This document shows positions 43,491 through 59,269 of a stretch of 64,000 bases of DNA, one piece after another. The notes under the pieces were generated by a model that saw only the letters and a list, made by a program, of their open reading frames with translations, had not been told where the DNA came from and ran no database searches. Position 1 is the first letter of the stretch. Each line of letters opens with the position of its first letter. The DNA comes from Clostridia bacterium. GTDB lineage: Bacteria > Bacillota > Clostridia > UMGS1883. The position numbers and the translations under genes were made by a program. The stretch is taken from the NCBI GenBank assembly GCA_051866635.1, contig JBJDXJ010000038.1, positions 32,001-96,000 of the forward strand, in the 5' to 3' direction.

Positions 43491-43585
43491 AATTGTTTAT
43501 CCACTGTTTAAAGCAATCATTGACAGCTTTAGGATATATTTTATGACGATGGTAAAATATATAAATAAGAAAGGAAGTTGTTTAA

Positions 43586-44437
43586 ATGAAGTTATTAACT
43601 AATGAGCTAATCCAAAAATTCAAAATTTACTTAACAAATGAAGAAAAAGCCCAGGCAACTATTGATAAATACTTGCGTGATATATACGCATTTATGGCTT
43701 GGCTTTGCGGCAAGGAAGTATGTAAGGAATATGTTTTGCAATATAAAAAAGAAATCTTAGAAAATTATGCTCCTGCAAGTGTGAATTCAATGCTTTCATC
43801 GCTCAATGCGTTTTTTGCTTATAATGAGTGGTATGAACTTAGAGTAAAATCCGTTAAAATTCAAAAGCAAATATTTGCAAGCAAGGACAGAGAACTTACC
43901 AAGACTGAGTATGAAAGACTATTGAATGCGGCGAAGAATAAGAAAAATGAAAGGCTGTATTACCTGATGCAGACTATTTGCAGTACGGGCTTGAGAGTTT
44001 CGGAATTAAAATTCATTACTACAGATGCGGTTCGATGTGGACAAGCAACCATTAACTGCAAAGGAAAAATGAGAATAGTTATCTTACCTAAGCAGCTTTG
44101 CAAAATGCTTACCATTTATGCAAAAGCAAACAATATAAAAAGCGGCTCCGTATTTGTAAGCAAAAACGGGAAGCCGCTTAACAGATCAAATATATGGTCC
44201 GATATGAAAAAACTCTGTGAATCTGCCGGAGTATCTGCTGAGAAAGTATTTCCTCATAATTTGAGACATCTTTTCGCAAGAACTTATTACTCTCTCCAAA
44301 AGGATGTAGTACGACTTGCTGATATTTTAGGTCATTCAAGTGTAAATACTACAAGGATTTATACTATGGAAAGCGGAGAGGTTCACAGAAAGCAAATTCA
44401 AAAATTAGGATTACTCCTGTGTAGCAATAAATTATAA
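43586..44437 (+). CDS. tyrosine recombinase (Xer-like), probable DNA invertase
   Basis: TGLRVSEL, KGK, HNLRHLFAR, LGHSSVNTTRIY (R-K-H-R-H-Y catalytic set). Confidence 0.93.
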   Translation: MKLLTNELIQKFKIYLTNEEKAQATIDKYLRDIYAFMAWLCGKEVCKEYVLQYKKEILENYAPASVNSMLSSLNAFFAYNEWYELRVKSVKIQKQIFASKDRELTKTEYERLLNAAKNKKNERLYYLMQTICSTGLRVSELKFITTDAVRCGQATINCKGKMRIVILPKQLCKMLTIYAKANNIKSGSVFVSKNGKPLNRSNIWSDMKKLCESAGVSAEKVFPHNLRHLFARTYYSLQKDVVRLADILGHSSVNTTRIYTMESGEVHRKQIQKLGLLLCSNKL

Positions 44438-44460
44438 CATAATTTGTATTATGTAGTGAC
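44431..44460. repeat. left recombination site (dif-like)
   Basis: ATTATAACATAAT-TTGT-ATTATGTAGTGAC; 18-bp core 44437-44454 is the exact reverse complement of 44690-44707. Confidence 0.85.
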
Positions 44461-44511
44461 ATTGTTGATGTATTCTCATTGTAGGAAGATACACAATATC
44501 AAATTTCACAC

Positions 44512-44558
44512 AAAAACAAGACCAATGATATTAGAAATTATTACATTGGTCTGTTTTT
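44512..44558. terminator. bidirectional terminator-like hairpin inside the invertible segment
   Basis: AAAAACAAGACCAATG...CATTGGTCTGTTTTT; T run follows the stem on both strands. Confidence 0.6.
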
Positions 44559-44622
44559 CGTTGCCTCTTTTTGTTTGAATATCTGAAAAAGATATAAAAT
44601 TATGTAAATTAACTGCAAATTA

Positions 44623-44651
44623 TTGACTTTTATATATTCACATGCTATAAT
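44623..44651 (+). promoter_or_regulatory. sigma-A promoter inside the invertible segment
   Basis: TTGACT-17 bp-TATAAT with TGn extension, facing the surface-protein genes. Confidence 0.85.
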
Positions 44652-44683
44652 GGTAGCGTATAATTAGGTTTATTGTCTGTGCT

Positions 44684-44713
44684 ATTATAACATAATACAA
44701 ATTATGTAGTGAC
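44684..44713. repeat. right recombination site (dif-like)
   Basis: ATTATAACATAAT-ACAA-ATTATGTAGTGAC. Confidence 0.85.
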
Positions 44714-44847
44714 TGTCAGCAGATAAAACTATGTATATAATATTAAGAATTCAAAGGGGGTTATGCTATGGAAAGGCTTGATAGCAGTTAGTACCGTATG
44801 ACCATGAAAACTCAACAACTAAAACACTCAGAAAGGAAAATGTAAAC

Positions 44848-47800
44848 ATGAAATCTAAAAAATTTACAGCTTGGATATTGGTCATGGCAATGCTTGTTAC
44901 AATGTTACCAAGCTCGCTTGCCTTAGCGACAGGTGATCATACAACACCGGCACCATATCCGGTAATTGTGACTGATGTATTTAGTGAAATGACTAATGAT
45001 ATCAGTGGTGTGGATAAAGGTACAGATTTAGACTTGACAGGAACAACAAATGATGCACTTCCGACTGTTAATTCAGCAGTTGGAGCGGAGACTGTACTTG
45101 ATGGTGTAGATGGTACAGTATACCATAATGCAGACAGCGAAATTAACAACATGAGAAGAAAACAAATTCTCACATTCGTTGCAAAATCTCAGGATGACAG
45201 CAACTTTATTAACAGCTCTACAAGCACGGGTGTGGCTGAACATGCTGTTGAAATCGCTTATTTGGATACAGACAGAGAACCTTTGGAAATAGATTTAGAC
45301 AGTGAGGAATTTGAGGTTATTGGCAGTGGAGATTGGAGCAACGCATGGATAGATCTTTCTCAAGACGTTCAGCAGACAGACCGTACACTGGAAACATTCC
45401 TTACAAAAGAGCTTGAGGGAATCAATCCCGAACTTTTGACCGCTGCACAGCTTTTTGCAACAGGTGATATGGTATCCTTCATGATTTACAATGTTATCAG
45501 AAGCGATTTTGCCGGTTATTTAAGAATTAAGATTACAGATAACAACGGCAACACCACAGTGCAGGACTATCCTATTGTAGCAGATGGTCAGTATCCCGCT
45601 GTTTCTATCAGCACTTCAACTTACAAAAATCCCGTAGGTGAAAATGTTGAAAATAGTGCAGTAACAACTGTTGCAGAAAATACATTTATTAATGAAATGG
45701 ATTTTGTAACTGTTATGGAAGATACAGAGGAAAACAAAGAAGAAAACGAAACCGATAATATTCATAAAAGCTACAGATGGCATAATCTTGATAAAGATGC
45801 ATTACAGAATGCTTTGAATTGGGAAGACGAAAACTATAAGCCGGAAGATATTTGGGCTATGGGTGATATTTCCATAGACGAAATAAAAATTTCAGACTTA
45901 TTAGTAACTTCCGGAATTGAAAGTGTTAAGTATTCGGTTGCAAATTACGGATTAAAAGAAAATGTAACTCCATCTACATTAGAAGGAACAATTGAACTTA
46001 CATATGATCCGGCAACAAAAACTTGTTCGGCAGGAACACCTATTGTAATCAGTAATGAAGGCTTTAATGTTTTGGCAATTACAGCAGTTGACAATTCAGG
46101 ACTTAAAACAACAAACAGATACTATTTCTACATGGATACTACAGCACCCAAAGCAAAGTTTGACCTTGTAGAATTGGATAAGAACGTTGTTTCCTTATTT
46201 ACTGATGCTGATACAGTAACAAACAGACAGCAAGCTATTGATATGAGTGAATCAGATGATGTAACGGCAAGCGTTGATGTGATTTCCGGGCTTGAAGATG
46301 CAACAGCAGGCGAAACAGAAAATAATAAGATGTATCAGTATCGCTTACTTGCAACAAAAGCAGGTGCAACAGAAGGCGGAAATGTACCTGATGGTTATAC
46401 AGCAACTGTTCTCGACAAAGAAGGAAATGATTTAAGCGGTTGGAAAATTTGGACCGGCGAAACAGAAACCCCTGTTATAGATAAAGAATTTGACGGTATT
46501 GTTCAGGTACGTGTTCAGGACAGAGCAGGTAACTGGTCACCTATCGTTTCAGTAACAAGTGATGGAAAAGAAACAATTATTACAGATAACACTAACCCTG
46601 TAATTGATGTTAAGGAATATGCCCTTGACACCAATGGCGATACAATCGGCAATACAGATGCAGAAATAATTGGCGGCACTGCTACAGATATTTTAATTAC
46701 TTCAGCAAGAGTAACTGAAACAACTGACGGTGAAATTGAAAATGAGGTTATTCATACAATCACAGGTGATGTGGCACCTTGGATTAATGATTCTGCAGTA
46801 TTAGAAGTAAAGATTACTGATGAGGATCTTGCTAATGAAATTCGTTCATCAGGTCTTAAAAAAGGTCAGATTAATGTAACAGCAGAATTTAATGCCGAAA
46901 ATGAAAATAAAAAGGTTAAAATCTGGAACAAAAATGGTGTTGACAAGAAAAATGTTGATGATTCTTTCAACCTTACAGAAGACTACATTTTCGGAACAGA
47001 AACCGACAAGGATTTAACATTCTATATTGAATATGAAGGAACAGGTGTTGTTGATATCACGGTTTCTGTTAAAGACCAGGCAGATGTAAATGATGGCGAT
47101 GTTTTCTCAACAATTTATACAACTCAGCTTAGAGTTGATAAAATCAATCCTTACATTATATATAAGGGATACGATATCACAGATAAAGCCAATGAAGATT
47201 TGTTGAAAGCAAACCATGAAAAAGTTGATTACGAAGTTCGTAATATGCCTTGGGGACCGAACAGCCAGGTTCTTGAAGTTGTTGTGAAAGATGATGATAT
47301 TACTCCGATACAGTCTAAGACTAAAAATATAAGATTTAACGCTGACAAAGAATTAGACTTGTATGAATACGTTGGTGGTGTATTCACAAAGATTAAGACT
47401 TATGCCGCAGGTAATGATAATGTAGTATCACTTAGTGATTGTGAAGAACTTGCTAATGAAAAGTATGAATCCAATGTTGGTTATAAGTTCTATCTTGTAT
47501 ATGAGGGTACAGGCATTGCAAAAGTTGAATTCTTTGCAGATGATTCAGCTACAGCACCCAACGTAAGAGATTATCCTTCTATAGCAACTGCTGCTGAGGC
47601 AGAACCTGTATTATACGATGCAATGCTCCGCGTTGATAAAATTAACCCTGAAATTAAAAACGTAAAACTTGTTGAAACAGATATAGACGTTGAAGATAAA
47701 GGTTGGAGTCTCTTCTCTTTCAACGAAACAAATGTTGAAGTTAATACAAGAAAGCAGATGAAGATAACATTTGAGATTGTTGATGAAAACACAACAACAG

Positions 47801-50800
47801 AACAGTCCGGTGTTAATATTCAGAACGAAAAGATATCAGGCGTAGATTTAATTGATGTATATAAAAATTATGTAGAAAAAGATAAAACACATCTTTATGA
47901 TAATAAGCCTACAACATATACAACAGATGATGTAAATGACAAGGCAGTAGATCCTAACATTGATTATATCCTTCTTCCTGTAGAAGCGGGTTCAATTAAT
48001 GGCACAGGCGGCAATTTTGAAGAAGCTGCATCTGCATCTAATGAAGCTATTGAAGCACTCGTAGCTGAATATCTTGATAAGGTATACAATGCAGATGGTG
48101 ATAAGTGTGAATGGAAGAAAGCATCATGGAAAGATGGCGGAATTGTTGTTCCTGATGAATTCCAGGGTGCAATCGTTATCAGAACAATTGACCGTGTAGG
48201 TAATATTGATTACGCAGAAGCTATCACATTTGTTGCTGAATCAAGAGAAGCATTAATTGACTTTAATCCTCAGAACGGATATATTTGGTCTCAAAACAAT
48301 TATGGTTGGTCAAAACGTGATTACGATTATGTTGAAATTCGAGTAAAAGATGATAACGAAGACAAAGTAGATGCTTGGCTCGAAAATGTGTTTATCAGTG
48401 TGACTGACCTTGAAGGTAACGACATCTCAACAAAGGAAACAGTTAAGTTTGCTCCAAATGATCCTTCATTAAAGATTGATCCTTCTGCATATACTTATGT
48501 TTCTTTAAGTGATTTCACAAATGAAGCTGCATACGGTTATGATGTAATTGATGCATACGGTCTTGTTGAAAAACTTTATCGCGATAGCGAAGGATATATC
48601 CACCTTGGTTATGTAAGAGTAGCTGAAAGTGCTCAGATTAAGGTAACCATTTTCGATAAGGCTAAACATAACGATGTTGAATATACAGGTAATAAGACAA
48701 CAGGTATCTGGACATCAAGAATAGACAGAACAGCACCTACTGTAAATGTTAAGGTTGTTGCAATTCCGGCAAGCGAACACGGTGCTGCTGACAACAATAA
48801 GGTTGTTCTTGGTTTGAAAGCCGATATTATTGATAATGAATCCGGTGTTGCACCTTATATTACTGATGGTACTTACAATGTTTATACTCCTGAAAATGTT
48901 CCCGCATCCGGAGTATTTGCCTCTGATAAATCTTTCTTATATAAAGTAACAAATGATGCAGATGCTGAAGTTGAAAGATTTGATAGTGGAACATTCAACA
49001 CAAGACAGTATGAACTTCCCGGTTTACAGTATGCTTTGATTCCTGAAAATGGCAAATTGGAAAATGTTAAACCGTGGAATTTTGAAACTGATCCTAAAAC
49101 CGTTTATGATGAAAACGGATACAACGGAAACATGGGTGCAACATATGTATGGCATAACTATGTTGATGACAAAACACCTATCCTTCCGGAAGAAGGCTTT
49201 GATGGCTACATTGTTGTAAGAGCTATTGACAAAGCAGGCAATATCACTGTTATTGGTTGTGCTCCCACAATTGATATTGAAGCAGCAGAAGGTTGGCAGA
49301 AAGAAACACAGCTTATCCATGTTAAGGCTTCTCCCAAAACAGGAAATATTACAACTGTAGAATATATGGGTAATAACAATCTTCTTACTCATGATGAAGC
49401 GGGCAATTTGGTAACAAGAAATATTTATGCCGAGGCAATCAGTGGTGCAGGTACATTCATTGAAGTTACAGAAGAAGGTATTACAGATGTTATAATTACA
49501 GCTTCTGAAGAGTATACAGCACAGCAAACAGTTAAGGCAGCTTCCGATGAAAGAAATGCAACTTGGGAAGGCTCCATGATTGTTGGTAATGCTACACCTT
49601 CCGGATATGAAGATTTCAAATTCCAAACTGTTCAGGTGAAGATTGATAAGACAGCTCCTACGTTTGAATTTACATTAGTTGATGCAGCAAATGAAGAAAT
49701 AGTTACTTCTTCTAGAGGATTTGGAATTAAAGTAGCAGACGGTGAGGAAATTGTAGATCCTATTCCTAACTTACCTGATGTTGTCGGTTATCGTTCACAT
49801 ATTTCTTCCGGAATTGCAAAGGTTGAATATTGCGTAGCGAGTGAAGGAATGGAAGAATGGCATGAAGTTGATAAAGCAACATGGGAAACAGGTGTTATTA
49901 AAGCATATGAAGACAATGCAGCTATAACAGGTACTGTTAAAGTTCGTGTTACAGATAATGCCGGTAACGTAACTGAAAAATCCAAGTCTATCAATATTGA
50001 TAGTGCAATACCGATTATCAGCATCTCCAAGTCTTATGATTCAAAATGGAGCAATAAGCCTGTAGAAGTGAAAGTAACAGTTTCTTCAGGTGCAGAATTC
50101 TCTGACATTAGTAGCGTTTATTATACAGTAACCGGTGGAACAGAAGGTGAACTTCCTGTTACAGGCGGTACAATCACAATAGGCCAAGAAGGTGTGTATG
50201 AAGTTAGTGTAAAAGCATTAACAAAGAGCGGAAAATCTCTTGAAGCATGGACAGATGTTCATATTGACTGGACAGCACCTGATTTTGAACTTGAATTAAC
50301 GGATGGCGAGGATGTTCTTGCAGACGGTGCTAAGACAGGAAATGCAGTTACAGTAAATGTTAAGGATATTATTGACAACGTATCCGGAGTTAAGTCTATT
50401 GAATGGTGCAAGGTAGCAGAAGGCTCTGTAAATGAGCAGTGGAATAACATAACATCTGCTAAAACTGCAACAATAGAAAAAGCAGAAGCATTTACAGGAA
50501 CAGTAAAGGTTCGCGTAACAGATGAAGCAGGTAATGTTACTGTTAAGACTCAAAGAGTTATCCATAACGATGACGTGGCTATGCCTGAGTTAGTAGGTGT
50601 TGCCTCCGGTTCTTGGAAGATTGACAACGATACAGTAACAGTTGCATCTTATGCCGACGATAAAGTTAAGGTTCGTTATTCAAATAACGGAGAACCTTGG
50701 ACAGATGTAATTGAAAACTCTATCACGCTTGTTCCCGGAGCTAACCGCATCAGACTTCAGGCCTACAGAGAAGATTGCGGCTGTGAAAGTGATGTAAGAA

Positions 50801-52545
50801 CTTATGTAATTAATTACGAACCTATTGAAAATACACCTATTATTGATATTAGACATGATTACGGTAATAAGTACATGACTGTTGGCGGTTCAGATTTTGA
50901 AATTGTAAATTCTACAAATGAATCGGTAACTGTTAGCCTTGTGCCTAATAAAGGAACATGTGAAGCTGATATCCAAAGTGTAGTATACGACTTATATCTT
51001 AATGGTGTGGCTACAGAAAAAAATAAAAATATTTATCTTCCCATAACAGGTGGTACTTTAACGCTTTCTGAAGAAGGCGAATGGGCAATCGGAAATGTAA
51101 GAATAACAACAGAAAGCGGTAAAGAGTATAATCTTCTTCCTGATTATCAAGTAGTTGCTTTAATAGACAAGACTGCTCCTGTATTTGATAATGCAGAAAC
51201 AAAACTTGTTGGTATAGGCGGTGAATTGACATTATTTGGATTGGCTGAACCTACAAATGAGCAACAGAAATTAACAGCAAAAGCTAAAGATAATTGCATA
51301 ACATATAAAGGCGGAGCATCTACTGTTTTATTCTATGAATATGCATTGCTTGAAAAAGGCATGATTGAGCCTAATTGGGAACCATTGAAGTATGAATGGA
51401 ATGACACAAAAGTTGAAACCGATGCAATTATAACAACATCTTTTGAAGGAACAGTTCTTGTTAGAGTTACAGACGTAGCAGGTAACAGCTCCGTAAAATC
51501 CATTCAGGTATTTGCAGAAGGAACCAAACCTGAAATCTCAATTACAGCTCCTTCATCTTGGCAGACAGAAGATGTTATGATCAAGGTTGATGTAGTTGAT
51601 AAAGGATTATCTTCTACAATAAAGAGTGTTACATATGAATTATTAAATGGTGCTCATAAGGAAAAAGGTGAGCTTTCGTCAATAGGTGGTTCTATCGAAA
51701 TCACACGAGAAGGAATAACTAAAGTTAAAATAACTGCAGAAGATTATGCCGGAAACATTGAAACAATAGATACTTGTGAAGTAAAGATTGATAAAACTGC
51801 TCCTGAATACTCAGGCATAGTTGAGTTGCTTGGTGTTTATAATGAACACGAAATTCCCGAAAGTAAATGGAACGTTATCCATGACGGTTGGACATATAAC
51901 CATAATGTAAGCCTTGAAGGAATTGAAGATACTCATTCGGGAATTAAGAAAGTGAATATTACTTTTACAGGTGATGACGGTGCCGTAACTGAAACTACAC
52001 TTAATTCAAGTCAGACAAGTAGCAGCTTCTCTGAAAACGGCAAGTATGATCTTACTTTGATTGACAATGCAGGTAATGTTAGAAATATCAGCTTTACAAT
52101 CAATAAAGATTTACAGAATGTAATCAATGTCATTGGTATAGATGAATTCGGTAAGCTGAATATCGCAGTTACAGATGGTGATGATATGCTTACGTTCTAT
52201 AAGAAAGAAAACAGCGAAAGCAAATACACCAAGATGTATAATGGTATAACAAACCAGTTAATTGATGGTAAGACCGGCGTACGTTATATCTACGGACAGA
52301 ATGATGCAGGTAAGAAATCAAATACATTGTATGTAATTGTTGCTCCAAGTACTGAATATGGAATTTCATTAATGAGTCTTAGCTCGATACCTAACAGATA
52401 TTTGAATATTGATGCTGAAGGCGAAAAGGTTACTGTTACGAAGATTGATGAAATTTTCAATCCCGGAATCAATGAAAACATCTCCGTTGGTTCTGTTGTT
52501 GAAATCAACGAAGATGGTATATATTCAATTACAACTAATGATTAA
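44848..52545 (+). CDS. giant secreted Ig-like repeat protein (2565 aa), putative adhesin or surface scaffold
   Basis: Signal peptide; about ten IDxTAP/VDKINP-type and eight DxAGN-type motifs; acidic; no LPxTG, SLH or TM anchor seen. Confidence 0.8.
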   Translation: MKSKKFTAWILVMAMLVTMLPSSLALATGDHTTPAPYPVIVTDVFSEMTNDISGVDKGTDLDLTGTTNDALPTVNSAVGAETVLDGVDGTVYHNADSEINNMRRKQILTFVAKSQDDSNFINSSTSTGVAEHAVEIAYLDTDREPLEIDLDSEEFEVIGSGDWSNAWIDLSQDVQQTDRTLETFLTKELEGINPELLTAAQLFATGDMVSFMIYNVIRSDFAGYLRIKITDNNGNTTVQDYPIVADGQYPAVSISTSTYKNPVGENVENSAVTTVAENTFINEMDFVTVMEDTEENKEENETDNIHKSYRWHNLDKDALQNALNWEDENYKPEDIWAMGDISIDEIKISDLLVTSGIESVKYSVANYGLKENVTPSTLEGTIELTYDPATKTCSAGTPIVISNEGFNVLAITAVDNSGLKTTNRYYFYMDTTAPKAKFDLVELDKNVVSLFTDADTVTNRQQAIDMSESDDVTASVDVISGLEDATAGETENNKMYQYRLLATKAGATEGGNVPDGYTATVLDKEGNDLSGWKIWTGETETPVIDKEFDGIVQVRVQDRAGNWSPIVSVTSDGKETIITDNTNPVIDVKEYALDTNGDTIGNTDAEIIGGTATDILITSARVTETTDGEIENEVIHTITGDVAPWINDSAVLEVKITDEDLANEIRSSGLKKGQINVTAEFNAENENKKVKIWNKNGVDKKNVDDSFNLTEDYIFGTETDKDLTFYIEYEGTGVVDITVSVKDQADVNDGDVFSTIYTTQLRVDKINPYIIYKGYDITDKANEDLLKANHEKVDYEVRNMPWGPNSQVLEVVVKDDDITPIQSKTKNIRFNADKELDLYEYVGGVFTKIKTYAAGNDNVVSLSDCEELANEKYESNVGYKFYLVYEGTGIAKVEFFADDSATAPNVRDYPSIATAAEAEPVLYDAMLRVDKINPEIKNVKLVETDIDVEDKGWSLFSFNETNVEVNTRKQMKITFEIVDENTTTEQSGVNIQNEKISGVDLIDVYKNYVEKDKTHLYDNKPTTYTTDDVNDKAVDPNIDYILLPVEAGSINGTGGNFEEAASASNEAIEALVAEYLDKVYNADGDKCEWKKASWKDGGIVVPDEFQGAIVIRTIDRVGNIDYAEAITFVAESREALIDFNPQNGYIWSQNNYGWSKRDYDYVEIRVKDDNEDKVDAWLENVFISVTDLEGNDISTKETVKFAPNDPSLKIDPSAYTYVSLSDFTNEAAYGYDVIDAYGLVEKLYRDSEGYIHLGYVRVAESAQIKVTIFDKAKHNDVEYTGNKTTGIWTSRIDRTAPTVNVKVVAIPASEHGAADNNKVVLGLKADIIDNESGVAPYITDGTYNVYTPENVPASGVFASDKSFLYKVTNDADAEVERFDSGTFNTRQYELPGLQYALIPENGKLENVKPWNFETDPKTVYDENGYNGNMGATYVWHNYVDDKTPILPEEGFDGYIVVRAIDKAGNITVIGCAPTIDIEAAEGWQKETQLIHVKASPKTGNITTVEYMGNNNLLTHDEAGNLVTRNIYAEAISGAGTFIEVTEEGITDVIITASEEYTAQQTVKAASDERNATWEGSMIVGNATPSGYEDFKFQTVQVKIDKTAPTFEFTLVDAANEEIVTSSRGFGIKVADGEEIVDPIPNLPDVVGYRSHISSGIAKVEYCVASEGMEEWHEVDKATWETGVIKAYEDNAAITGTVKVRVTDNAGNVTEKSKSINIDSAIPIISISKSYDSKWSNKPVEVKVTVSSGAEFSDISSVYYTVTGGTEGELPVTGGTITIGQEGVYEVSVKALTKSGKSLEAWTDVHIDWTAPDFELELTDGEDVLADGAKTGNAVTVNVKDIIDNVSGVKSIEWCKVAEGSVNEQWNNITSAKTATIEKAEAFTGTVKVRVTDEAGNVTVKTQRVIHNDDVAMPELVGVASGSWKIDNDTVTVASYADDKVKVRYSNNGEPWTDVIENSITLVPGANRIRLQAYREDCGCESDVRTYVINYEPIENTPIIDIRHDYGNKYMTVGGSDFEIVNSTNESVTVSLVPNKGTCEADIQSVVYDLYLNGVATEKNKNIYLPITGGTLTLSEEGEWAIGNVRITTESGKEYNLLPDYQVVALIDKTAPVFDNAETKLVGIGGELTLFGLAEPTNEQQKLTAKAKDNCITYKGGASTVLFYEYALLEKGMIEPNWEPLKYEWNDTKVETDAIITTSFEGTVLVRVTDVAGNSSVKSIQVFAEGTKPEISITAPSSWQTEDVMIKVDVVDKGLSSTIKSVTYELLNGAHKEKGELSSIGGSIEITREGITKVKITAEDYAGNIETIDTCEVKIDKTAPEYSGIVELLGVYNEHEIPESKWNVIHDGWTYNHNVSLEGIEDTHSGIKKVNITFTGDDGAVTETTLNSSQTSSSFSENGKYDLTLIDNAGNVRNISFTINKDLQNVINVIGIDEFGKLNIAVTDGDDMLTFYKKENSESKYTKMYNGITNQLIDGKTGVRYIYGQNDAGKKSNTLYVIVAPSTEYGISLMSLSSIPNRYLNIDAEGEKVTVTKIDEIFNPGINENISVGSVVEINEDGIYSITTND

Positions 52546-52558
52546 TTAAACTAATTGT

Positions 52559-52612: not shown

Positions 52613-53965
52613 ATGAAAAAAATTATTTCTTGCATTCTTGCAGTTACAATACTGTGTTGCAGTGCTGTCGCTTTTGCTGATGAAAAAGAGGTTGTAATTG
52701 ATACTGAAGTGCCTGTATTTAAAGATTTAGTGGATGGTTCAAGCTATTCCGGAAGCAAAACAGTTGAAATTGCAGATTTAAGCCAAGTTAACTGTGTTTT
52801 AATGAAATCCGGAAAAGGAACAGTTAGTTTTGCCGGCAAAACATTTGAAGGTTATACGAAAGTTGCGGAAGAATATAATCTTGATTGTATAAACTACACT
52901 GAGGTAGCTACTGTTTCTGATGTAGGTTCGTATATGATATATGCAACAGACATCTACAATCACGATATTGCTGTAAGATTTACAATAACCAAATCAGGCG
53001 AAGGCACCGGCGGTGGCGGAGGCGGTGGTAGTGACACTACAACAGTTAAACAACCATACGCTAACGGCGATCCTGATAATGTAAAAGGAACTGTGACAGC
53101 AGGTAAAAAAATCACATTAGATACTGATACAGGAAATGCGAAGATATATTATACAACCGATGGAACGACCCCCACAAGTAAAAGCAGGCGTTATGATGCA
53201 AACATCGGCATCATTTTGAAGGAAGGTCAGATCCTGAAAGCAGTTGCGATTAAGGGCGGCATATCAAGTGAAGTCTCCGAGTGGATATGTACTTCATTCA
53301 AAAAGGGTGAATCTGTTGTTAAAGATGTGTTAGAAACAGAAGAACATATTGTTTATATGTTCGGTTATCCGGATAAAACCTTCGGACCAAACGACAATAT
53401 GACACGTGCAGAAGTAGCAACAATGTTCACAAGACTTATGAAGGATAAAATGGATAGTGATGTCGTATATGAATCTTCATTTTCAGATGTTACGCCGGAT
53501 GCATGGTATTATAACTATGTGGGATATATAGAAAAGTTCGGAATCATCACCGGTTATGAAGATGGTACGTTCAGACCTCAAAACACTATAACAAGAGCAG
53601 AATTTGTTACTATGGCAAGTCGTTTCGCAACTGTCAGCAAAGAGTTTGAGTGTGACTTTACAGATGTTACAACAGAACATTGGGCATATGATTACATTGC
53701 ATTTGCCGCCGGCAACAGTTGGATTGGTGGCTATGAGGATAACACATTCAGAGCCGATAATACAATAAGCAGAGCAGAAGTTGTAACTATTGTAAATAAT
53801 ATGCTTATCAGAAATGCTGATAAAGAATATGTGAATGCTAATAAAGCATTGCTTACATTGTTTGCTGATGTGAACGAAGAACATTGGGCTTATTATAATA
53901 TCATTGAGGCAACAAATGAACATACTTATAAAGTAAATGACAATGTGGAAAAATGGAATCAATAA
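52613..53965 (+). CDS. SLH protein with Ig-like and Fn3-associated (CHB_HEX_C-like) domains
   Basis: Signal peptide, poly-Gly linker, IYYTTDGTTPT, three SLH repeats (GYPDKTFGP..TRAE, GYEDGTFRP..TRAE, GYEDNTFR..SRAE). Confidence 0.88.
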   Translation: MKKIISCILAVTILCCSAVAFADEKEVVIDTEVPVFKDLVDGSSYSGSKTVEIADLSQVNCVLMKSGKGTVSFAGKTFEGYTKVAEEYNLDCINYTEVATVSDVGSYMIYATDIYNHDIAVRFTITKSGEGTGGGGGGGSDTTTVKQPYANGDPDNVKGTVTAGKKITLDTDTGNAKIYYTTDGTTPTSKSRRYDANIGIILKEGQILKAVAIKGGISSEVSEWICTSFKKGESVVKDVLETEEHIVYMFGYPDKTFGPNDNMTRAEVATMFTRLMKDKMDSDVVYESSFSDVTPDAWYYNYVGYIEKFGIITGYEDGTFRPQNTITRAEFVTMASRFATVSKEFECDFTDVTTEHWAYDYIAFAAGNSWIGGYEDNTFRADNTISRAEVVTIVNNMLIRNADKEYVNANKALLTLFADVNEEHWAYYNIIEATNEHTYKVNDNVEKWNQ

Positions 53966-53978
53966 GGAGGTATGGAAG

Positions 53979-55082
53979 ATGAGAAAAGTACTTTCTATAT
54001 TGATGGCTGTTATTATTATATTGACTCTTAGCAGTGTGATTGTGGTGTTCGGTTACGATGGTAATGTTTTGTATTCAGATGTAAACTCAAATCATTGGGC
54101 ATTTGAAGCTATATCTTTTGCTACGGAGAAAAAGTGGTTTAATGGATATTCCGACGGCACTTTTTGTCCCAACAATACAATTTCACGGGCAGAGGCTACA
54201 AAAGTATTGGTTTCTTTGCTTGAAAGAGACGTTAAAAAAATATCAGATACCAGTTATAGTGATGTATTCGTTACAGATTGGTATGCCCCTTATATAGAGG
54301 CGGGGAAGGATTTGTTTCTCAACGTCAAGGATGGCGGAAAATTCAAGCCAAATACTCCTATCTCTCGTGAAGAAACTGTTTATGCTTTGGTTCGTGGAAT
54401 GAAATTTAACATTTCTGTTGAATATGTGGATCAGTCAATGCTTGAAAAATTCACTGATGCCAAGGAAATAGATGATTCGATAAAGCCATATTTTACAATA
54501 GCGATGCAGAAAAAGTTAATTTCAGGATATAGCGATGGAACTGTTAAAGCAAAAGATTCGTTAACCAGAGCAGAGTTTGCAACATTGCTGTACCGAGCGT
54601 ACCGGATTAGCCAAGGAAAAGGCATTGACCAAATCGAAATGACAAATGATGAGGCAAAAAGTTACGAAGAGTCTTATGAAGACTATGAATTAACCGATTC
54701 AAGTGAAATAGCTTTTAGAAAGGCTGTTGTAACACTGGTTAATGAGATACGTAATGACTATGGTTTGAATCAGCTTTCAGAAAATCCCGATCTTGCAAAA
54801 GTAGCACAGATGAAAGCTGAAGATATGCAAAATAATGACTATTTTGACCATCAGTCTCCGACTTATGGTTCACCTTTCGATATGATGGATGAATTCGGCA
54901 TATCATATATAAGTGCCGGAGAAAACATAGCAAAAGGACAATCAACTCCCCAAGAGGTTGTAGATAGTTGGATGAACTCAATGGGACATAGAGAGAATAT
55001 TTTAGATCCTTCATATGATCAGATAGGAATTGGCTATTCGGCAGATGAAGATATTTGGGTTCAAATGTTTATAGGTCAGTAA
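53979..55082 (+). CDS. SLH protein with C-terminal CAP/SCP domain
   Basis: N-terminal SLH repeats; YFDHQSPTYGSPFDMM, AGENIAKGQ, WMNSMGHRENIL. Confidence 0.9.
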   Translation: MRKVLSILMAVIIILTLSSVIVVFGYDGNVLYSDVNSNHWAFEAISFATEKKWFNGYSDGTFCPNNTISRAEATKVLVSLLERDVKKISDTSYSDVFVTDWYAPYIEAGKDLFLNVKDGGKFKPNTPISREETVYALVRGMKFNISVEYVDQSMLEKFTDAKEIDDSIKPYFTIAMQKKLISGYSDGTVKAKDSLTRAEFATLLYRAYRISQGKGIDQIEMTNDEAKSYEESYEDYELTDSSEIAFRKAVVTLVNEIRNDYGLNQLSENPDLAKVAQMKAEDMQNNDYFDHQSPTYGSPFDMMDEFGISYISAGENIAKGQSTPQEVVDSWMNSMGHRENILDPSYDQIGIGYSADEDIWVQMFIGQ

Positions 55083-55105
55083 TTATAAAAGAAAGGGAGA
55101 TTTAT

Positions 55106-57076
55106 ATGAAGAAAATAGTAAGTTTAATAATTTGTGCGGCATTCTTATTTTCCATGACGGTAACATCCTTTGCGGCACTGTCATATGGCTCCGAATGGGA
55201 TGGATATTATCATGACGCAACAACAACGTATGCAGATGTACCTTCTTCTCATTGGGCATACAATGCAATTATGAGATCTACTGAGAAGAATTGGTTTGGT
55301 GGTTATCCCGATGGAACTTTCAGACCTGATGGTCCTATTAAAAGAGCAGAAGCTCTTAAGGTTTTTGTTGTATTTTTAGGATTAGAGCTTGAAGATGTAA
55401 CAGAAAGTACTTTTTATGATGTAGATCCTAATAAGTGGTATGCACCTTACATAGAAGCCGGAAAAGACTTGTTCCCTACACATACAACAAATCAGGGAAA
55501 GACACCATTTAATCCTGAAATGCCTGTGACAAGAGAAGATACAATCTATGCTCTTGTTAAAGCACTGGGTTACAATGTTGGTGTAAAATATGTTGATGAG
55601 TCTATATTAAATATGTTTTCAGATAAAAATAGCATTTCGGGAGATATAAGACCTTATTTTGCTATTGCACTTCAAAACGAATTAGTATCAGGATTTCCTG
55701 ATGGAACAATTCGTGCACAGGATTCTCTTACAAGGGCAGAATTTGCAACGTTGTTATATCGTGGTAGCTTTGTAGGATTTAATGATGCGTATGAAGCTAT
55801 TATAGACTCTGTAACCGTAACACCTACAACCAGCATCGAAATGACTGTCGGCGAAACAATCACATTATCGGCAAGAGCTACATACACAGATAAAACGAAC
55901 AAGCCTTATACCGAATTATCGCCCTATGATGCAAACGGCAATGGAGTTATAACATTAAAAGGAACAACTATCACAGCCGTTAAGGAAGGTACAGCAGTAA
56001 TCAAATACAATGATTCTTATTTGAAAAAAGAATCTTTGACAATAACTGTTAAGAATCCTACTGAAGGTCCAAGCTTGAAAGTTACAGATTATGACGACAT
56101 AACAAAAGAATCAACTATGGAAATCAAGGGCCGTGTTACTGACAAAAACGGTGATGTTGATTTAACCTGTAATGGCAAGGATGTTGCTGTAAAAAGCGAT
56201 GGTAGCTTTGCTGTAACAGTTTCACTTGTAATTGGTACAAATAACATTCAGTTTGTGGCTGAAAATATTTATGGTGTGGAAACAACAAAGAGCGTTACTA
56301 TTATAAGAGAAAAAGAAGAAACAACATCAACAACAGTACCCGACACAGATTCCGATGGTGACGAAAAGGAAGAAAAGGAAGAAAAAGAAGATAAAGAAGA
56401 AACTGTCTCTGCTCCAACAACGCCTTCAAGCGGAGAAGAAGGAACACCTTATTTAACCTTTGATAAGAGCACGGGAACAATTACAAAATGCGGCACAAGC
56501 GTTGCCGATATTGAAATTCCTGACAAAATCGAAGGTGTAAACGTGCACATCATAGGCGAAGGTGCTTTTGAAGGTTGTACTTATCTTGAAAGTATTACAT
56601 TCCCTTCAACTTTAAAGACCATAAAGGCATCTGCATTCAGCAGATGTACACACCTTTTAGAAGTGAAAATTCCCGAAGGAACAACAAGCATTGGTGCAAA
56701 TGCATTTGATGGATGTGTTTATCTTACAGATGCTGTCATACCCGAAGGTATTAAGAAGATTGCAGATGAATTGTTCATCGGATGTAAGAGGTTGAAAAAC
56801 ATCTCTTTACCCGAAACAGTTAAAGAAATCGGTGCAAATGCCTTTGAAGGTTGTAAGAGCTTGGAAGAGGTTGTATTGCCCGAATCTACAACTACTATAA
56901 AAGACGGCGCATTTAAAAATTGTGGCGGTCTTCAGAAAATCGTTATTCCCGACAATGTAACAACTATTGCAGATGATGCATTCGACGGATGTAACGCACT
57001 CACAATCTATGCTTCCGTTAGTTCGTATGCAATAGAATATGCAAAAGAAAACGGTATTGCTTGGGCAATTCTCTGA
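55106..57076 (+). CDS. SLH protein with Ig-like domains and BspA-type leucine-rich repeats
   Basis: Signal peptide, SLH repeats, EKEEKE linker, repeated IGxxAFxGCxxL motifs. Confidence 0.9.
   Translation: MKKIVSLIICAAFLFSMTVTSFAALSYGSEWDGYYHDATTTYADVPSSHWAYNAIMRSTEKNWFGGYPDGTFRPDGPIKRAEALKVFVVFLGLELEDVTESTFYDVDPNKWYAPYIEAGKDLFPTHTTNQGKTPFNPEMPVTREDTIYALVKALGYNVGVKYVDESILNMFSDKNSISGDIRPYFAIALQNELVSGFPDGTIRAQDSLTRAEFATLLYRGSFVGFNDAYEAIIDSVTVTPTTSIEMTVGETITLSARATYTDKTNKPYTELSPYDANGNGVITLKGTTITAVKEGTAVIKYNDSYLKKESLTITVKNPTEGPSLKVTDYDDITKESTMEIKGRVTDKNGDVDLTCNGKDVAVKSDGSFAVTVSLVIGTNNIQFVAENIYGVETTKSVTIIREKEETTSTTVPDTDSDGDEKEEKEEKEDKEETVSAPTTPSSGEEGTPYLTFDKSTGTITKCGTSVADIEIPDKIEGVNVHIIGEGAFEGCTYLESITFPSTLKTIKASAFSRCTHLLEVKIPEGTTSIGANAFDGCVYLTDAVIPEGIKKIADELFIGCKRLKNISLPETVKEIGANAFEGCKSLEEVVLPESTTTIKDGAFKNCGGLQKIVIPDNVTTIADDAFDGCNALTIYASVSSYAIEYAKENGIAWAIL
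55228..55770 (+). repeat. near-identical SLH-coding block, copy 1
   Basis: Long identical DNA stretches shared with about 57280-57822 (offset 2052 bp); boundaries approximate. Confidence 0.8.
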
Positions 57077-57093
57077 TAATATATTAACGATAC

Positions 57094-57122
57094 GGAAAGG
57101 CGGCATACTATGCCGTCTTTCC
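57094..57122. other. intergenic stem-loop without plus-strand U-tract
   Basis: GGAAAGGCGGCAT-ACT-ATGCCGTCTTTCC. Confidence 0.7.
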
Positions 57123-57145
57123 AAAAATAGAAAGGAGTTCTTAAC

Positions 57146-59260
57146 ATGAAATGTAAAGCAAAAAAGATAGTCACATTATTGTTAAGTGTTTTTATAATCT
57201 TATCTGCAATCAATTTTAATGTATTTGCTTTGGGGTACGGTTCTGAATGGGCAGAATACGACAATTCCAAGGAACAAAAGTATGCAGATGTACCTTCTTC
57301 TCATTGGGCATATGAAGCAATTAGCAGAGCAAGCAGCAAAAATTGGTTTGGTGGTTATCCCGATGGAAATTTCAGACCTGATGGTCCTATTAAAAGGGCA
57401 GAAGCTCTTAAGGTTTTTGTTGTATTTTTAGGATTAGAGCTTGAAGATGTAACAGAAAGTACTTTTTATGATGTAGATCCTAATAAGTGGTATGCACCTT
57501 ACATAGAAGCCGGAAAAGACTTATTCCCTACACATACAACAAATCAGGGAAAAACACCATTTAATCCTGAAATGCCTGTGACAAGAGAAGATACAATTTA
57601 TGCTCTTGTTAATGCACTTGGTTATCAGGTTGGTGCAAAATATGTTGATGAGTCTGTATTAGATATGTTTACAGATAAAAATAGCATTTCAAAAGATATA
57701 AGACCTTATTTTGCTATTGCACTCGAAAATGAACTTGTGTCAGGTTTTCCGGATGGAACAATTCGTGCACAGGATTCTCTTACAAGAGCTGAATTTGCAA
57801 CACTTTTATACAGAGGATCTTTCGTAGGACATAGTGACAACTACGAGGCAAAAATATCAAATGTAACAGTTTCTCCGGAGTCACCGATAGAAATTGAAAT
57901 TGGTGAAAGTGTTACGTTGACAGCAAGAGCAACATATACAGATGGAACAAATCAGGCATATTCAAGTTTGCAGCCTTATGATGCCGAAAACAATGGTGTT
58001 ATATCCTTAAGCGGAACAACAATCACAGGAATTAAAGAAGGAACAACAACAATTAAGTATAATGATTCATATCTTAAGAAAGATAGTTTAACGGTTATTG
58101 TTAAAAAGCCGACGGATGCTCCTAAAATAAAAGTTACTGATTATCCTGATACAACTGATGAAAGCAGAGTAACCATTTCCGGTACAGTTATTGACAAAAA
58201 TGTTGCAACTGTTGATTTTACATGCAACAGTAAAGATGTATTGTTAAATGAAGATGGTAGCTTCAGCACGATTGTATCGTTAAGACCGGGTGAAAATACT
58301 ATCAAGTTCACGGCGGTAAATGAATATAGTATGTCAGCAGAGAAAACAATAGAAGTCACAAGAACAAGTGCTCCGATTATCTTTATAACAAAATACAAAA
58401 ATAGCACAGTTGCTTCTAAAACAACTGTTGAAGGTATAATTACAGACAGCGATCTTTCTACCGTAAAACTTTCCTGTAACGGTGCAGATATAAGAATAAA
58501 TGCAGATGGTAGTTTTGCAACGGAAGTTGCATTGAAAATGGGCAAAAATCCTTTTACATTTACTGCAACAAATCAATACGAAAAAACAGCACAGCAGGCA
58601 ATAGAAATAACACGGTATGAGATTATCGATGAACCTAACGATGTTCCGGATGTTCCGGATTATGAAAAAATAAAAGGTAAGGTAGAACTTGTTTTTGTAA
58701 TTGATGCAACAGGCTCTATGTGTGATGAGATAGGAAATGTTAAAACAAATATCAGTGAATTTGCGGCACATTTAGAAGAAATGGGCGTAGATCTTAAAAT
58801 GAGTGTAGTTGAATACAGGGATATTACTTGCGATGAGCCTACTAAAGTTCATAAATATGCAGGCAATACATGGCACACAAGTTCAGAAAGCTTAATAACC
58901 ACATTGGCGTCTATCGATGCTTCCGGTGGCGGAGATGCTCCTGAAAGTGTTCTTGACGGATTCGGTCATGTTTTAGACAACAGACATATGGATTGGTCAG
59001 AGGATGCATTTAAGTTTGCTGTTCTTCTTACAGATGCAAGCTATAAGACAGAAAATACATACGGTTATAGCAGTCTAGAAGAAATTGCTGATAAGCTTGC
59101 ATCAAAGAACTTGAATACATCTGTTATAACTTCAACCTCTCTTTTTAAGACCTATAATGTTTTAACCAGTAAAACAGGCGGTTTACAGGTTGATATAACA
59201 TCAGACTTTGATAAGGCTTTGTCAGATTTGGCAGATAAAATTATTGACAGATCTTTGTGA
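57146..59260 (+). CDS. SLH protein with Ig-like domains and C-terminal vWA domain
   Basis: SLH repeats; MIDAS-type FVIDATGSM, GGGDAPES, LLTDA. Confidence 0.9.
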   Translation: MKCKAKKIVTLLLSVFIILSAINFNVFALGYGSEWAEYDNSKEQKYADVPSSHWAYEAISRASSKNWFGGYPDGNFRPDGPIKRAEALKVFVVFLGLELEDVTESTFYDVDPNKWYAPYIEAGKDLFPTHTTNQGKTPFNPEMPVTREDTIYALVNALGYQVGAKYVDESVLDMFTDKNSISKDIRPYFAIALENELVSGFPDGTIRAQDSLTRAEFATLLYRGSFVGHSDNYEAKISNVTVSPESPIEIEIGESVTLTARATYTDGTNQAYSSLQPYDAENNGVISLSGTTITGIKEGTTTIKYNDSYLKKDSLTVIVKKPTDAPKIKVTDYPDTTDESRVTISGTVIDKNVATVDFTCNSKDVLLNEDGSFSTIVSLRPGENTIKFTAVNEYSMSAEKTIEVTRTSAPIIFITKYKNSTVASKTTVEGIITDSDLSTVKLSCNGADIRINADGSFATEVALKMGKNPFTFTATNQYEKTAQQAIEITRYEIIDEPNDVPDVPDYEKIKGKVELVFVIDATGSMCDEIGNVKTNISEFAAHLEEMGVDLKMSVVEYRDITCDEPTKVHKYAGNTWHTSSESLITTLASIDASGGGDAPESVLDGFGHVLDNRHMDWSEDAFKFAVLLTDASYKTENTYGYSSLEEIADKLASKNLNTSVITSTSLFKTYNVLTSKTGGLQVDITSDFDKALSDLADKIIDRSL
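57280..57822 (+). repeat. near-identical SLH-coding block, copy 2
   Basis: Matches 55228-55770; boundaries approximate. Confidence 0.8.
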
Positions 59261-59269
59261 TTTAAAATC

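What the first reader, a model, noticed from the sequence alone, without database searches (positions are those of the whole stretch)
43586..44713. Tyrosine-recombinase invertible promoter switch upstream of a cell-surface operon
Seen: the recombinase stop codon lies inside site 1. ACATAATTTGTATTATGT (44437-44454) and ACATAATACAAATTATGT (44690-44707) are exact reverse complements. Between them is TTGACT-17-TGnTATAAT pointing at a ~14.4-kb run of five surface-protein genes. Established: tyrosine recombinases invert DNA between sites with inverted spacers (FimB/FimE at fimS, RecV at cwpV). Inference: a compact phase-variation cassette, captured in the ON state, toggling an Ig-repeat/SLH surface structure.
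Basis: partly seen in the sequence, partly recalled or inferred. Interest (0 to 1): 0.88.

Follow-up and report, generated by a model that had tools for sequence, protein, structure and literature searches.

The report
Invertible promoter cassette, ON state
A small recombinase gene is followed by a 235-base flippable DNA piece that carries a promoter and a terminator and here points at a large cell-surface operon; it is one member of a widespread family of such switches in gut Clostridia.

Summary
A 283-aa Xer-like tyrosine recombinase (43586-44437) ends in site 1. Sites 44437-44454 and 44690-44707 are exact reverse complements. Between them lie a hairpin terminator and a near-consensus promoter facing a 14.4-kb surface operon.

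No reads could be laid, so inversion in this strain is not shown. The comparative evidence is strong.
- The same genome holds four such cassettes, with the same arms and different 4-nt cores.
- Of 80 related loci, 78 have site 1 after the recombinase. Sixty-nine have a second site, and in 69 of 69 the cores are reverse complements.
- Orthologues L012, L013 and G416 carry the same segment exactly inverted between colinear flanks.
- Of 73 cassettes, 16 are ON and 57 OFF, with no phylogenetic signal.
- Contigs break preferentially at the switch.

The exact site motif occurs in 119 of 401 sampled genomes of the class. A 2025 paper describes a Clostridia inverton group with an adjacent tyrosine recombinase that may be this family; I could not verify that.

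Verdict: a real invertible promoter, a new member of a known kind. Its conserved arms with a hypervariable, covarying core did not turn up in my literature searches.

The parts
43515..43585 (+). Conserved leader of the recombinase gene: AATCATTGACA (43515-43525), TGGTAAAAT extended -10-like element (43550-43558), and an AAAGGAAGTTG ribosome-binding region (43570-43580)
   Evidence: consensus of 64 aligned upstream regions (window plus 63 loci) keeps TCATTGAC, TGgTAAAAT and AAaGgAGTTG. The TTGACA-like element sits 27 nt from the -10-like element in the window, too far for a standard sigma-70 -35. Promoter function is inferred.
43586..44437 (+). Xer-like tyrosine recombinase, 283 aa, the presumed invertase
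   Evidence: Phage_integrase 8.1e-30 plus an N-terminal SAM-like domain. R137, H224, R227, H250 and Y259 are invariant in the four paralogues; these align with the GLRVSEL, HxLRH, LGHS and IYT motifs of solved XerA-like 4a8e; below the curated cut-offs of all NCBIfam Xer, integron-integrase and FimB/E-type models.
44434..44457 (.). Site 1 (outer half fixed, inner half inverts). The 18-mer is 44437-44454 and the asymmetric core TTGT is 44444-44447.
   Evidence: The 24-bp extent follows the half-site consensus ACC-ACATAAT of 73 cassettes. The window's own outer three bases deviate (ATA / AGT).
44455..44689 (.). Invertible segment, 235 bp
   Evidence: 194 of 235 identical to the L012 segment in reverse orientation (144 of 262 aligned columns forward) and 189 of 238 to L013 in reverse; in G416, BLAST matches query 852-1122 on the minus strand between plus-strand flanks.
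44519..44552 (.). Hairpin (stem AGACCAATG / CATTGGTCT, 16-nt loop) with an A-run before and a T-run after: a terminator-like element readable on both strands
   Evidence: -15.7 kcal/mol (+ strand, z -4.3) and -16.7 kcal/mol (- strand, z -3.95); in 62 homologous hairpins, 8 consensus pairs, 7 with compensatory changes. One search's terminator scan did not list it because its loop exceeds 8 nt.
44623..44651 (+). Sigma-70-type promoter TTGACT-17-TGcTATAAT facing the cargo (ON). An overlapping second match, TTCACA-16-TATAAT, lies at 44637-44664.
   Evidence: 11 of 12 each; every one of the 73 cassettes has a comparable promoter at the mirror-equivalent place.
44687..44710 (.). Site 2. The 18-mer is 44690-44707 and the core ACAA is 44697-44700 (reverse complement of site 1's core).
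44848..52545 (+). Cargo gene 1: 2565-aa secreted-looking giant protein with weak Ig-like hits
   Evidence: an orthologue follows the L013 switch (55% identity over 896 aligned positions).
52613..59260 (+). Cargo genes 2-5 (52613-53965, 53937-55082, 55055-57076, 57146-59260): SLH-anchored proteins carrying, respectively, CHB_HEX_C_1/Fn3_assoc; CAP; LRR_5 plus Glucodextran_B; and Glucodextran_B plus VWA domains
   Evidence: The genes are tightly spaced or overlapping. The five terminator-like hits in 52400-59800 do not exceed the shuffle expectation of 3.9. Co-transcription is inferred.

Best explanation
This is a self-contained phase-variation cassette. The adjacent Xer-like tyrosine recombinase binds the palindromic arms of two roughly 24-bp sites and exchanges strands across their asymmetric central core (TTGT at site 1, its reverse complement at site 2). 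That inverts the 235-bp segment between them. The segment carries a strong sigma-70 promoter and, upstream of it, a hairpin terminator. In the orientation seen here (ON), recombinase transcripts stop at the hairpin and the promoter reads through site 2 into a five-gene, 14.4-kb operon. That operon encodes a giant secreted-looking protein and four SLH-anchored wall proteins. After inversion (OFF), the promoter points back into the 3' end of the recombinase gene and the hairpin lies between the recombinase gene and the operon. Shown here: the anatomy, the recombinase family and catalytic residues, and the fact that homologous segments lie in both orientations at exactly these sites in other genomes. 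Inferred: that the adjacent recombinase is the invertase, that inversion occurs in this strain, that the promoter and terminator work as such, and that the five genes are co-transcribed.
For: Anatomy. Hairpin: stable on both strands; 7 of 8 pairs with compensatory changes in 62 homologues. Paralogues: the same 2.33-Mb genome holds four cassettes of recombinase, site, segment, site and cargo. They share the same arms and have cores TTGT, TGTG, CTAC and GTGT. In three of them the promoter faces the recombinase. Family: of the best 80 related loci (479 confirmed relatives), 78 have site 1 within 200 nt of the recombinase end. Sixty-nine have a second site 150-450 nt further on, and 69 of 69 have reverse-complementary cores, with 43 different cores among 73 cassettes and none palindromic. 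Seven of the 9 loci without a partner end 22-245 nt after the start of site 1. Direct evidence of inversion between genomes: the L012 and L013 segments are the mirror image (194 of 235 and 189 of 238 identical in reverse) with colinear flanks. Their site flanks are swapped exactly as inversion within the 18-mer predicts. In the same-family genome G416, BLAST gives plus, minus, plus matches. Lability: 16 ON and 57 OFF of 73 cassettes. On a tree of 72 recombinases, orientation needs 14 changes (maximum 16), no fewer than shuffled labels (mean 14.6, sd 1.15). Assembly breaks: 13 of 80 contigs end within 440 nt after the recombinase, against 11 in the next 2.5 kb and 9 in the 3 kb upstream. Breaks are expected where both orientations coexist in a sample. 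Three-site variants carry the extra tandem copy next to either site 1 or site 2, as inversion through the outermost sites would produce.
Against: There is no within-population evidence for this strain. No sequencing run was listed. The own assembly holds no alternative-orientation junction. A metagenome scan found no close relative. A promoter-like site outside the switch (CTGTCA-17-TATAAT, 44713-44741, 10 of 12) could give expression independent of orientation. One search's terminator scan did not call the hairpin, and across the family the T-run is modest (6 or more T in 10 nt in 33 of 70 hairpins). Orientation differences between species show that inversion happened, not how often it happens. 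The adjacent recombinase is assigned by position only.
Confidence: 0.85

Rival explanations
1. The switch is real, but in cells the inversion is catalysed by one of the paralogous recombinases, or by any of them interchangeably, because all four cassettes share the same arms. The adjacent gene would then not be specific for its own switch.
For: The arms ACATAAT/ATTATGT are identical in three of the four own cassettes and differ by one base per site in the fourth. Across 73 cassettes the 10-nt half-site is conserved while the recombinases diverge to 49% identity.
Against: Recombinase and switch are adjacent in 78 of 80 loci and occur 1:1 in the own genome. That pattern suggests selection for keeping each pair together. 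The outer three arm bases differ between the own cassettes and could give specificity.
Confidence: 0.2
2. This is a fossil or locked switch. The cassette descends from an active family but no longer inverts in this strain, so the operon is constitutively on.
For: No read evidence was available. Some family members look decayed: L051 and L086 lack a recognisable partner site, and G396:C22 has cores that differ from complementarity at one base.
Against: Both 18-mers are perfect, the cores are exactly complementary, and the recombinase ORF is intact with all catalytic residues.
Confidence: 0.08
3. The two palindromes are operator sites for a dimeric DNA-binding regulator, or attachment sites of a mobile element, and the segment is not inverted by site-specific recombination.
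For: Each site is itself a palindrome with a 4-nt centre. The module sits before very different cargo genes in different genomes, which shows the module has moved.
Against: An operator model does not explain strict core complementarity in 69 of 69 pairs. It does not explain mirror-image segments with breakpoints inside the sites. Attachment sites of an integrated element would be direct, not inverted, in their cores.
Confidence: 0.02

Closest known systems
Clostridia 'inverton group 139' with adjacent tyrosine 'invertase group 35' (hCom2 community study, PMC11892184; passages read)
   Same: These are invertons almost all from class Clostridia (32 of 33), and nearly all have a tyrosine recombinase gene next to them. 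In the examples printed there, 206 and 228 nt lie between the inverted repeats, and the Clostridium sp. D5 repeats are about 25 nt. That matches a 24-bp site and the commonest segment length here (212 nt between 18-mers equals 206 between 24-mers). Read-supported orientation shifts are reported there for Clostridium sp. D5 and Intestinimonas butyriciproducens.
   Different: Identity is not verified. The repeat motif of group 139 is given only in supplements, which are closed, and I could not reach those genomes by name. In the passages my term searches returned, that paper does not mention a variable covarying core or a built-in terminator (a search for 'terminator' returned only 'antiterminator'); promoter motifs there are derived by MEME enrichment rather than named.
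fimS with FimB/FimE of Escherichia coli (properties recalled from established knowledge)
   Same: A short promoter-bearing segment is inverted by tyrosine recombinases encoded next to it, giving ON/OFF control of a surface structure.
   Different: The recombinase here is not of that family: the NCBIfam tyrosine-type DNA invertase model NF007370 scores 37.5 bits against a cut-off of 221. Here there is one recombinase per switch, roughly 24-bp sites with palindromic arms, and a terminator inside the segment.
cwpV switch and RecV of Clostridioides difficile (PMC2784873, abstract read)
   Same: It is in the class Clostridia, inverts a roughly 200-bp segment by site-specific recombination, and controls a large cell-wall protein.
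   Different: According to the abstract, the 195-bp cwpV segment holds no promoter. Its promoter lies upstream, and OFF is proposed to arise from terminator formation in the transcript. Here the promoter is inside the segment. Homology to RecV was not tested.
Cre/loxP and FLP/FRT with heterospecific spacer variants (recalled, established)
   Same: It works like them. Palindromic recombinase-binding arms flank an asymmetric spacer that sets the site's direction. Inverted sites give inversion. Partners must share the spacer, which is what the 69 of 69 complementary cores imply.
   Different: These are not relatives in any tested sense. Here the variable centre is 4 nt, and the many spacer variants are natural rather than engineered.
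Xer recombinases (archaeal XerA, bacterial XerC/XerD)
   Same: They are the closest in sequence: XerA model 141.3 bits, XerD model 131.1 bits, and solved XerA-like 4a8e at E 9e-21. They share the two-domain layout.
   Different: All scores are below the curated cut-offs of 220 and 329.6. The gene sits next to an inverted site pair instead of acting at a single chromosomal dif site.

Membership tests
Tyrosine recombinase superfamily (Pfam Phage_integrase PF00589) | Catalytic domain match above the curated cut-off | tested here: met
   104.3 bits against a cut-off of 27.1, residues 103-261, plus an N-terminal SAM-like domain (24.9 bits against 22.3).
Tyrosine recombinase superfamily (Pfam Phage_integrase PF00589) | Catalytic Arg, His-x-x-Arg, His/Trp and Tyr nucleophile present | tested here: met
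   R137, H224, R227, H250 and Y259 are invariant in four paralogues; they align to the same motifs of solved XerA-like 4a8e. The assignment of roles is from recalled knowledge of the family.
Invertible promoter (inverton) | Inverted repeats flanking a short segment | tested here: met
   18 nt, exact, 235 nt apart, against 0.03 expected by chance.
Invertible promoter (inverton) | A promoter inside the segment that faces a gene in one orientation only | tested here: met
   (consensus match only). One search shows it conserved in 73 of 73 cassettes. Promoter activity was not tested.
Invertible promoter (inverton) | Both orientations exist | tested here: met
   Met between genomes.
Invertible promoter (inverton) | Both orientations coexist within one population of this strain | not testable with these tools
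   One search listed no run. One search found no alternative junction in the assembly.
Invertible promoter (inverton) | Inversion depends on a site-specific recombinase | not testable with these tools
   Only adjacency is shown: 78 of 80 loci.
FimB/FimE-type DNA invertases | Match to NCBIfam NF007370 or NF007371 above the cut-off | tested here: not met
   37.5 and 27.5 bits against cut-offs of 221 and 222.
XerC/XerD/XerA chromosome-dimer resolvases | Match to the equivalog models above the cut-off | tested here: not met
   XerA 141.3 against 220, XerD 131.1 against 329.6, XerC 109.6 against 335.
hCom2 inverton group 139 / invertase group 35 | Tyrosine recombinase gene next to the inverton; class Clostridia | tested here: met
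   against passages of PMC11892184.
hCom2 inverton group 139 / invertase group 35 | Shared inverted-repeat motif | not testable with these tools
   The motif is given only in supplements, which are closed. Only sizes could be compared.
cwpV-type switch | Promoter outside the segment, OFF by terminator formation in the transcript | tested here: not met
   The promoter is inside the segment. The definition is from the abstract of PMC2784873.

The most novel reading that the evidence does not exclude
The cassette belongs to a family of portable, addressable switches. Near-identical arms are recognised by closely related Xer-like recombinases, while a fast-evolving 4-nt core, always matched within a pair, would keep up to about ten co-resident switches from recombining with each other. 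That would be a natural counterpart of engineered heterospecific lox/FRT sites. In the OFF state the flipped promoter would also transcribe antisense into its own recombinase gene. This would give each switch a built-in orientation-dependent feedback and could explain the excess of OFF states (57 of 73).
Probability: 0.3. Interest if true: 0.7.

Novelty: new member of a known kind. Interest (0 to 1): 0.55.

Why it matters
Phase variation of surface structures is well studied in Bacteroides, E. coli and C. difficile. It is much less studied in the uncultured Clostridia that make up a large part of gut and rumen communities. This window gives a clean, complete example with a precise site definition: arms ACC-ACATAAT, a 4-nt core, a terminator and a promoter. 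The exact motif is found in 119 of 401 sampled genomes of the class, with up to 16 exact sites in one genome and about ten cassettes counting one-mismatch sites. The motif therefore gives a read-free way to find such switches and their cargo, which includes surface proteins, TetR-led operons and a bacteriocin-type exporter. If the cores do insulate cassettes from each other, the family would also be a ready-made set of compact orthogonal recombinase switches.

Tried and rejected
Read-level test: the look-up of sequencing runs on window:43600-45400 listed none, so read laying was never called.

Metagenome scan with the 18-mer of site 1: 100 stretches. BLAST of the recombinase, segment and downstream flank against them gave nothing closer than 74% over the recombinase (apart from one 47-nt hit at 87%). 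No within-species orientation variants were obtained.

Own assembly: predicted alternative-orientation junctions of all four cassettes were absent.

Rfam: nothing near a gathering score in 43300-45000, or in the long leader of the C49 cassette.

Strict core uniqueness within a genome is rejected as a rule. G270 has CAGC twice and TCTC twice, and G396 has CTAC at two places. These are metagenome bins, so strain duplicates cannot be excluded. L020 and L033 of one bin look like the same locus assembled twice.

A bidirectional terminator as a family-wide feature is only partly supported. Of 70 hairpins, 33 have 6 or more T in the 10 nt after the stem, 23 have 6 or more A before it, and 13 have both. 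The window's own hairpin has both.

Literature: searches found no description of this motif or of covarying cores. One search was badly framed and uninformative. Jiang et al. 2019 (Science) is not held, so I could not check its motif lists. Supplements of PMC11892184, which hold the group 139 motif, are closed and may bear on the novelty claim.

Full report
**What is in the window**

The ORF 43586-44437 encodes a 283-aa protein with a Phage_integrase catalytic domain (8.1e-30) and an N-terminal SAM-like domain. Its stop codon, TAA at 44435-44437, runs into an 18-mer at 44437-44454, ACATAAT-TTGT-ATTATGT. The exact reverse complement, ACATAAT-ACAA-ATTATGT, lies at 44690-44707, 235 nt further on.

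The degenerate pattern occurs only at these two places in 64 kb. The expectation is 0.03, and 0 of 100 shuffles gave two matches.

The stretches 44431-44460 and 44684-44713 differ only in the central 4 nt, which are reverse complements (D1). Each site is therefore a palindromic pair of arms around a short asymmetric core. Only the core makes the two sites 'inverted'.

Between the sites lie two elements:
- A hairpin at 44519-44552. Its stem is AGACCAATG/CATTGGTCT, with an A-run before and a T-run after. It folds at -15.7 kcal/mol on the + strand and -16.7 kcal/mol on the - strand, and no shuffle folds as well.
- The best promoter match of the region, TTGACT-17-TGcTATAAT at 44623-44651 on the + strand.

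Downstream, five + strand genes run from 44848 to 59260. The first is a 2565-aa protein with a signal-peptide-like start (by eye, not tested) and only weak Ig-like Pfam hits. It is followed by four SLH-domain proteins, which carry in turn CHB_HEX_C_1/Fn3_assoc, CAP, LRR_5 plus Glucodextran_B, and Glucodextran_B plus VWA domains. The genes are tightly spaced or overlapping. The five terminator-like hits in 52400-59800 do not exceed the shuffle expectation of 3.9.

**The recombinase**

All NCBIfam matches are below their curated cut-offs: XerA 141.3 against 220, XerD 131.1 against 329.6, and the FimB/E-type invertase model 37.5 against 221. The nearest solved structure is an archaeal XerA-like protein, 4a8e, at E 9e-21. 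The GLRVSEL, HxLRH, LGHS and IYT motifs line up. R137, H224, R227, H250 and Y259 are invariant among the four paralogues of this genome. It is an intact Xer-like tyrosine recombinase of a subfamily that no curated model names.

**Four cassettes in one genome**

The window's 2.33-Mb assembly holds three more copies of the same arrangement.

| Contig | Recombinase identity to the window's | Core (site 1 / site 2) | Cargo |
|---|---|---|---|
| C31 | 74% | TGTG / CACA | 69-aa peptide and a C39-peptidase ABC exporter |
| C49 | 61% | CTAC / GTAG | 1739-aa protein with an Ig-like hit |
| C35 | 49% | GTGT / ACAC (one arm mismatch per site) | DUF6625 protein |

Each segment has the hairpin and a near-consensus promoter. 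In these three the promoter faces the recombinase, with the hairpin on the far side. That is the mirror image of the window's arrangement.

**The family**

A scan of one genome per species found 479 confirmed relatives. The best 80 were kept, all from gut or rumen Clostridia bins. The counts are:
- 78 of 80 have site 1 within 200 nt of the recombinase end.
- 69 of 80 have a second site 150-450 nt further on.
- In 69 of 69 of these pairs the cores are reverse complements.
- Of the 9 with site 1 but no partner, 7 are contigs that stop 22-245 nt after the start of site 1.
- L051 and L086 go on without a recognisable partner.
- L059 and L064 have no site at all. L064 ends 5 nt after the recombinase.

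Over 73 cassettes (4 own plus 69), the half-site consensus is ACC-ACATAAT, which gives a site of about 24 bp. There are 43 different cores and none is palindromic. The pattern is arms fixed, core free, pair always matched. That is what a recombinase that needs identical crossover regions in its two partner sites would impose. The requirement is established for Cre, FLP and lambda Int (recalled knowledge).

**Evidence that the segment really inverts**

1. Orthologues. L012 and L013 have recombinases 90% and 87% identical to the window's and the same TTGT core. They carry the segment as an exact mirror image: 194 of 235 and 189 of 238 positions are identical in reverse, against 144 of 262 aligned columns forward. 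The flanks stay colinear (268 of 301 upstream; 234 of 312 downstream in L013). The inner flanks of the two sites are swapped and complemented just as predicted, so in those genomes each site is one long palindrome. In the same-family genome G416, BLAST itself returns plus, minus, plus for the recombinase, the segment and the downstream flank. The cargo is orthologous too, at 55% identity over 896 aligned positions.

2. Other same-core pairs lie in opposite orientations: L030/L031, L063/L067, L044/L056 and L040/L047.

3. Of 73 cassettes, 16 are ON and 57 OFF. On a maximum-likelihood tree of 72 recombinases, orientation needs 14 changes where 16 is the maximum. This is no fewer than 500 label shuffles (mean 14.6, sd 1.15; 39% at or below 14). 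Orientation therefore carries no phylogenetic signal and has flipped many times.

4. Contig ends cluster at the switch. Of 80 loci, 13 end within 440 nt after the recombinase, 11 in the following 2.5 kb, and 9 in the 3 kb upstream. Some contigs of other genomes start exactly at a site. Assemblers break where both orientations coexist in the sample.

5. Ten loci have a third, tandem copy of one site 11-23 nt from its twin. It lies beside site 1 in some and beside site 2 in others, with either promoter orientation. G048 and G111 show the same core with the twin on opposite sides. Inversion through the outermost pair would move the twin in just this way.

**Conserved architecture**

With all segments turned so that the promoter reads forward, the order is as follows:
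- site
- about 70 nt of spacer
- hairpin and T-rich tail
- about 50 nt of spacer
- ATTGACA-17-TGnTATAAT
- about 50 nt of spacer
- site

The hairpin is under selection as a structure. RNAalifold on 62 of the 73 cassettes (those whose hairpin met the position and stem criteria) gives 8 pairs, 7 of them with compensatory changes. Its T-run is only moderate across the family.

Upstream of the recombinase, 64 aligned sequences keep TCATTGAC, an extended -10-like TGgTAAAAT, and a ribosome-binding region. The recombinase therefore probably has its own weak promoter.

**Mechanism proposed**

The recombinase binds the four half-sites, pairs the two sites, and exchanges strands within the core. Because the cores are inverted, the outcome is inversion.

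- ON (this window): recombinase transcripts end at the hairpin. The promoter reads through site 2 and a leader of roughly 190 nt into the operon.
- OFF: the promoter reads antisense into the recombinase gene, and the hairpin shields the operon from read-through.

The steps from binding to regulation are inferred. A promoter-like site outside the switch (44713-44741, 10 of 12) might make OFF leaky.

**Distribution and cargo**

The exact 18-nt pattern is present in 119 of 401 sampled genomes of the class and in 69 of 216 genera. By my hand count of the table, about 85 genomes have two or more sites. The reversed control pattern hits 18 genomes. One genome holds up to 16 exact sites; counting one-mismatch sites, that genome has about ten cassettes.

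The first gene after the switch in 61 loci is varied: TetR-type regulators (11), zinc-ribbon (7) and SPFH (6) proteins, SLH, dockerin and cohesin proteins (3 each), and subtilases, signal peptidases and LRR_5 proteins (2 each). The module is thus a portable switch placed before many kinds of operon.

**Comparison with what is known**

The principle of promoter inversion by a neighbouring tyrosine recombinase is that of fimS. The recombinase is not of the FimB/E family.

The C. difficile cwpV switch differs in having no promoter inside the segment (abstract of PMC2784873).

The nearest published item I found is 'inverton group 139' with 'invertase group 35' in a defined gut community (PMC11892184, passages). 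It comprises 33 invertons, 32 from Clostridia, nearly all beside a tyrosine recombinase, with read-supported orientation shifts. The spacings printed there (206 and 228 nt between repeats; repeats of about 25 nt in one example) fit this family. Its motif is only in closed supplements, so I cannot say that it is the same family.

My six literature searches found no description of the conserved-arm, covarying-core design, the built-in hairpin, or the three-site variants. Jiang et al. 2019 could not be read.

**Verdict**

As a kind it is known, so I rate it a new member of a known kind.

The family-level regularities are the more interesting part, and they are testable. Whether different cores keep co-resident cassettes apart is open. 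The own genome has four different cores, but other bins repeat a core.

Noticed in passing
G000:C31:33598-37265 (L202), G000:C49:35536-42641 (L203), G000:C35:5486-7719 (L204): Three sister cassettes lie in the same genome, all with the promoter facing the recombinase (OFF). Their cargo is a 69-aa peptide plus a C39-peptidase ABC exporter (bacteriocin-type export), a 1739-aa Ig-like protein, and a DUF6625 protein.
   Followed up: partly
L052, L054, L055, L057, L066, L078, L079, L080, L088, L089; also G048:C6, G111:C16, G298:C15, G139:C43, G084:C7: Three-site variants: one site is duplicated in tandem with an 11-23 nt spacer, beside site 1 in some loci and beside site 2 in others. This allows two alternative inversions. 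The purpose is unknown.
   Followed up: partly
window 44848-47460 against L013:4191-6848: The giant cargo protein is mosaic relative to its orthologue. The first roughly 500 residues are poorly conserved, while residues about 515-870 look about nine-tenths identical by eye. This suggests a variable exposed tip on a conserved stalk, or recombination between alleles.
   Followed up: no
window 43515-43585 and the same place in 63 loci: Upstream of the recombinase there is a conserved TCATTGAC element 27-28 nt from a conserved TGgTAAAAT, too far apart for a standard -35/-10 pair. The TCATTGAC element resembles the -35 region of the invertible promoter itself, so it could be a regulator-binding site.
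   Followed up: no
window 44713-44741: A promoter-like site, CTGTCA-17-TATAAT (10 of 12), lies just outside site 2 on the cargo side. It could give orientation-independent basal expression.
   Followed up: no
G396:C22:197322-197540; L051; L086: Possible decayed switches. One pair has cores (TTGT and ATAA) that miss complementarity by one base. Two loci have site 1 but no recognisable partner although the contig continues.
   Followed up: no
73 cassettes (one search counts): Read on the recombinase strand at site 1, the first core base is a pyrimidine in 59 of 73 cassettes. Inversion does not change this reading, so the core has a preferred polarity relative to the recombinase gene. The cassettes are related, so the count overstates independence.
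   Followed up: no
G000:C49:36400-37421 (L203:1400-2422): The C49 segment is longer (296 nt) and has a GC-rich insert with its own inverted repeat. A GC-rich leader of about 700 nt precedes the cargo gene. Rfam found nothing above threshold.
   Followed up: partly
window 59604-63998: A further + strand ORF, open at the window's end (1465 aa so far), carries BspA-type LRR_5 repeats and a CarboxypepD_reg domain. The surface-protein cluster may therefore extend beyond the five genes named in the finding.
   Followed up: partly
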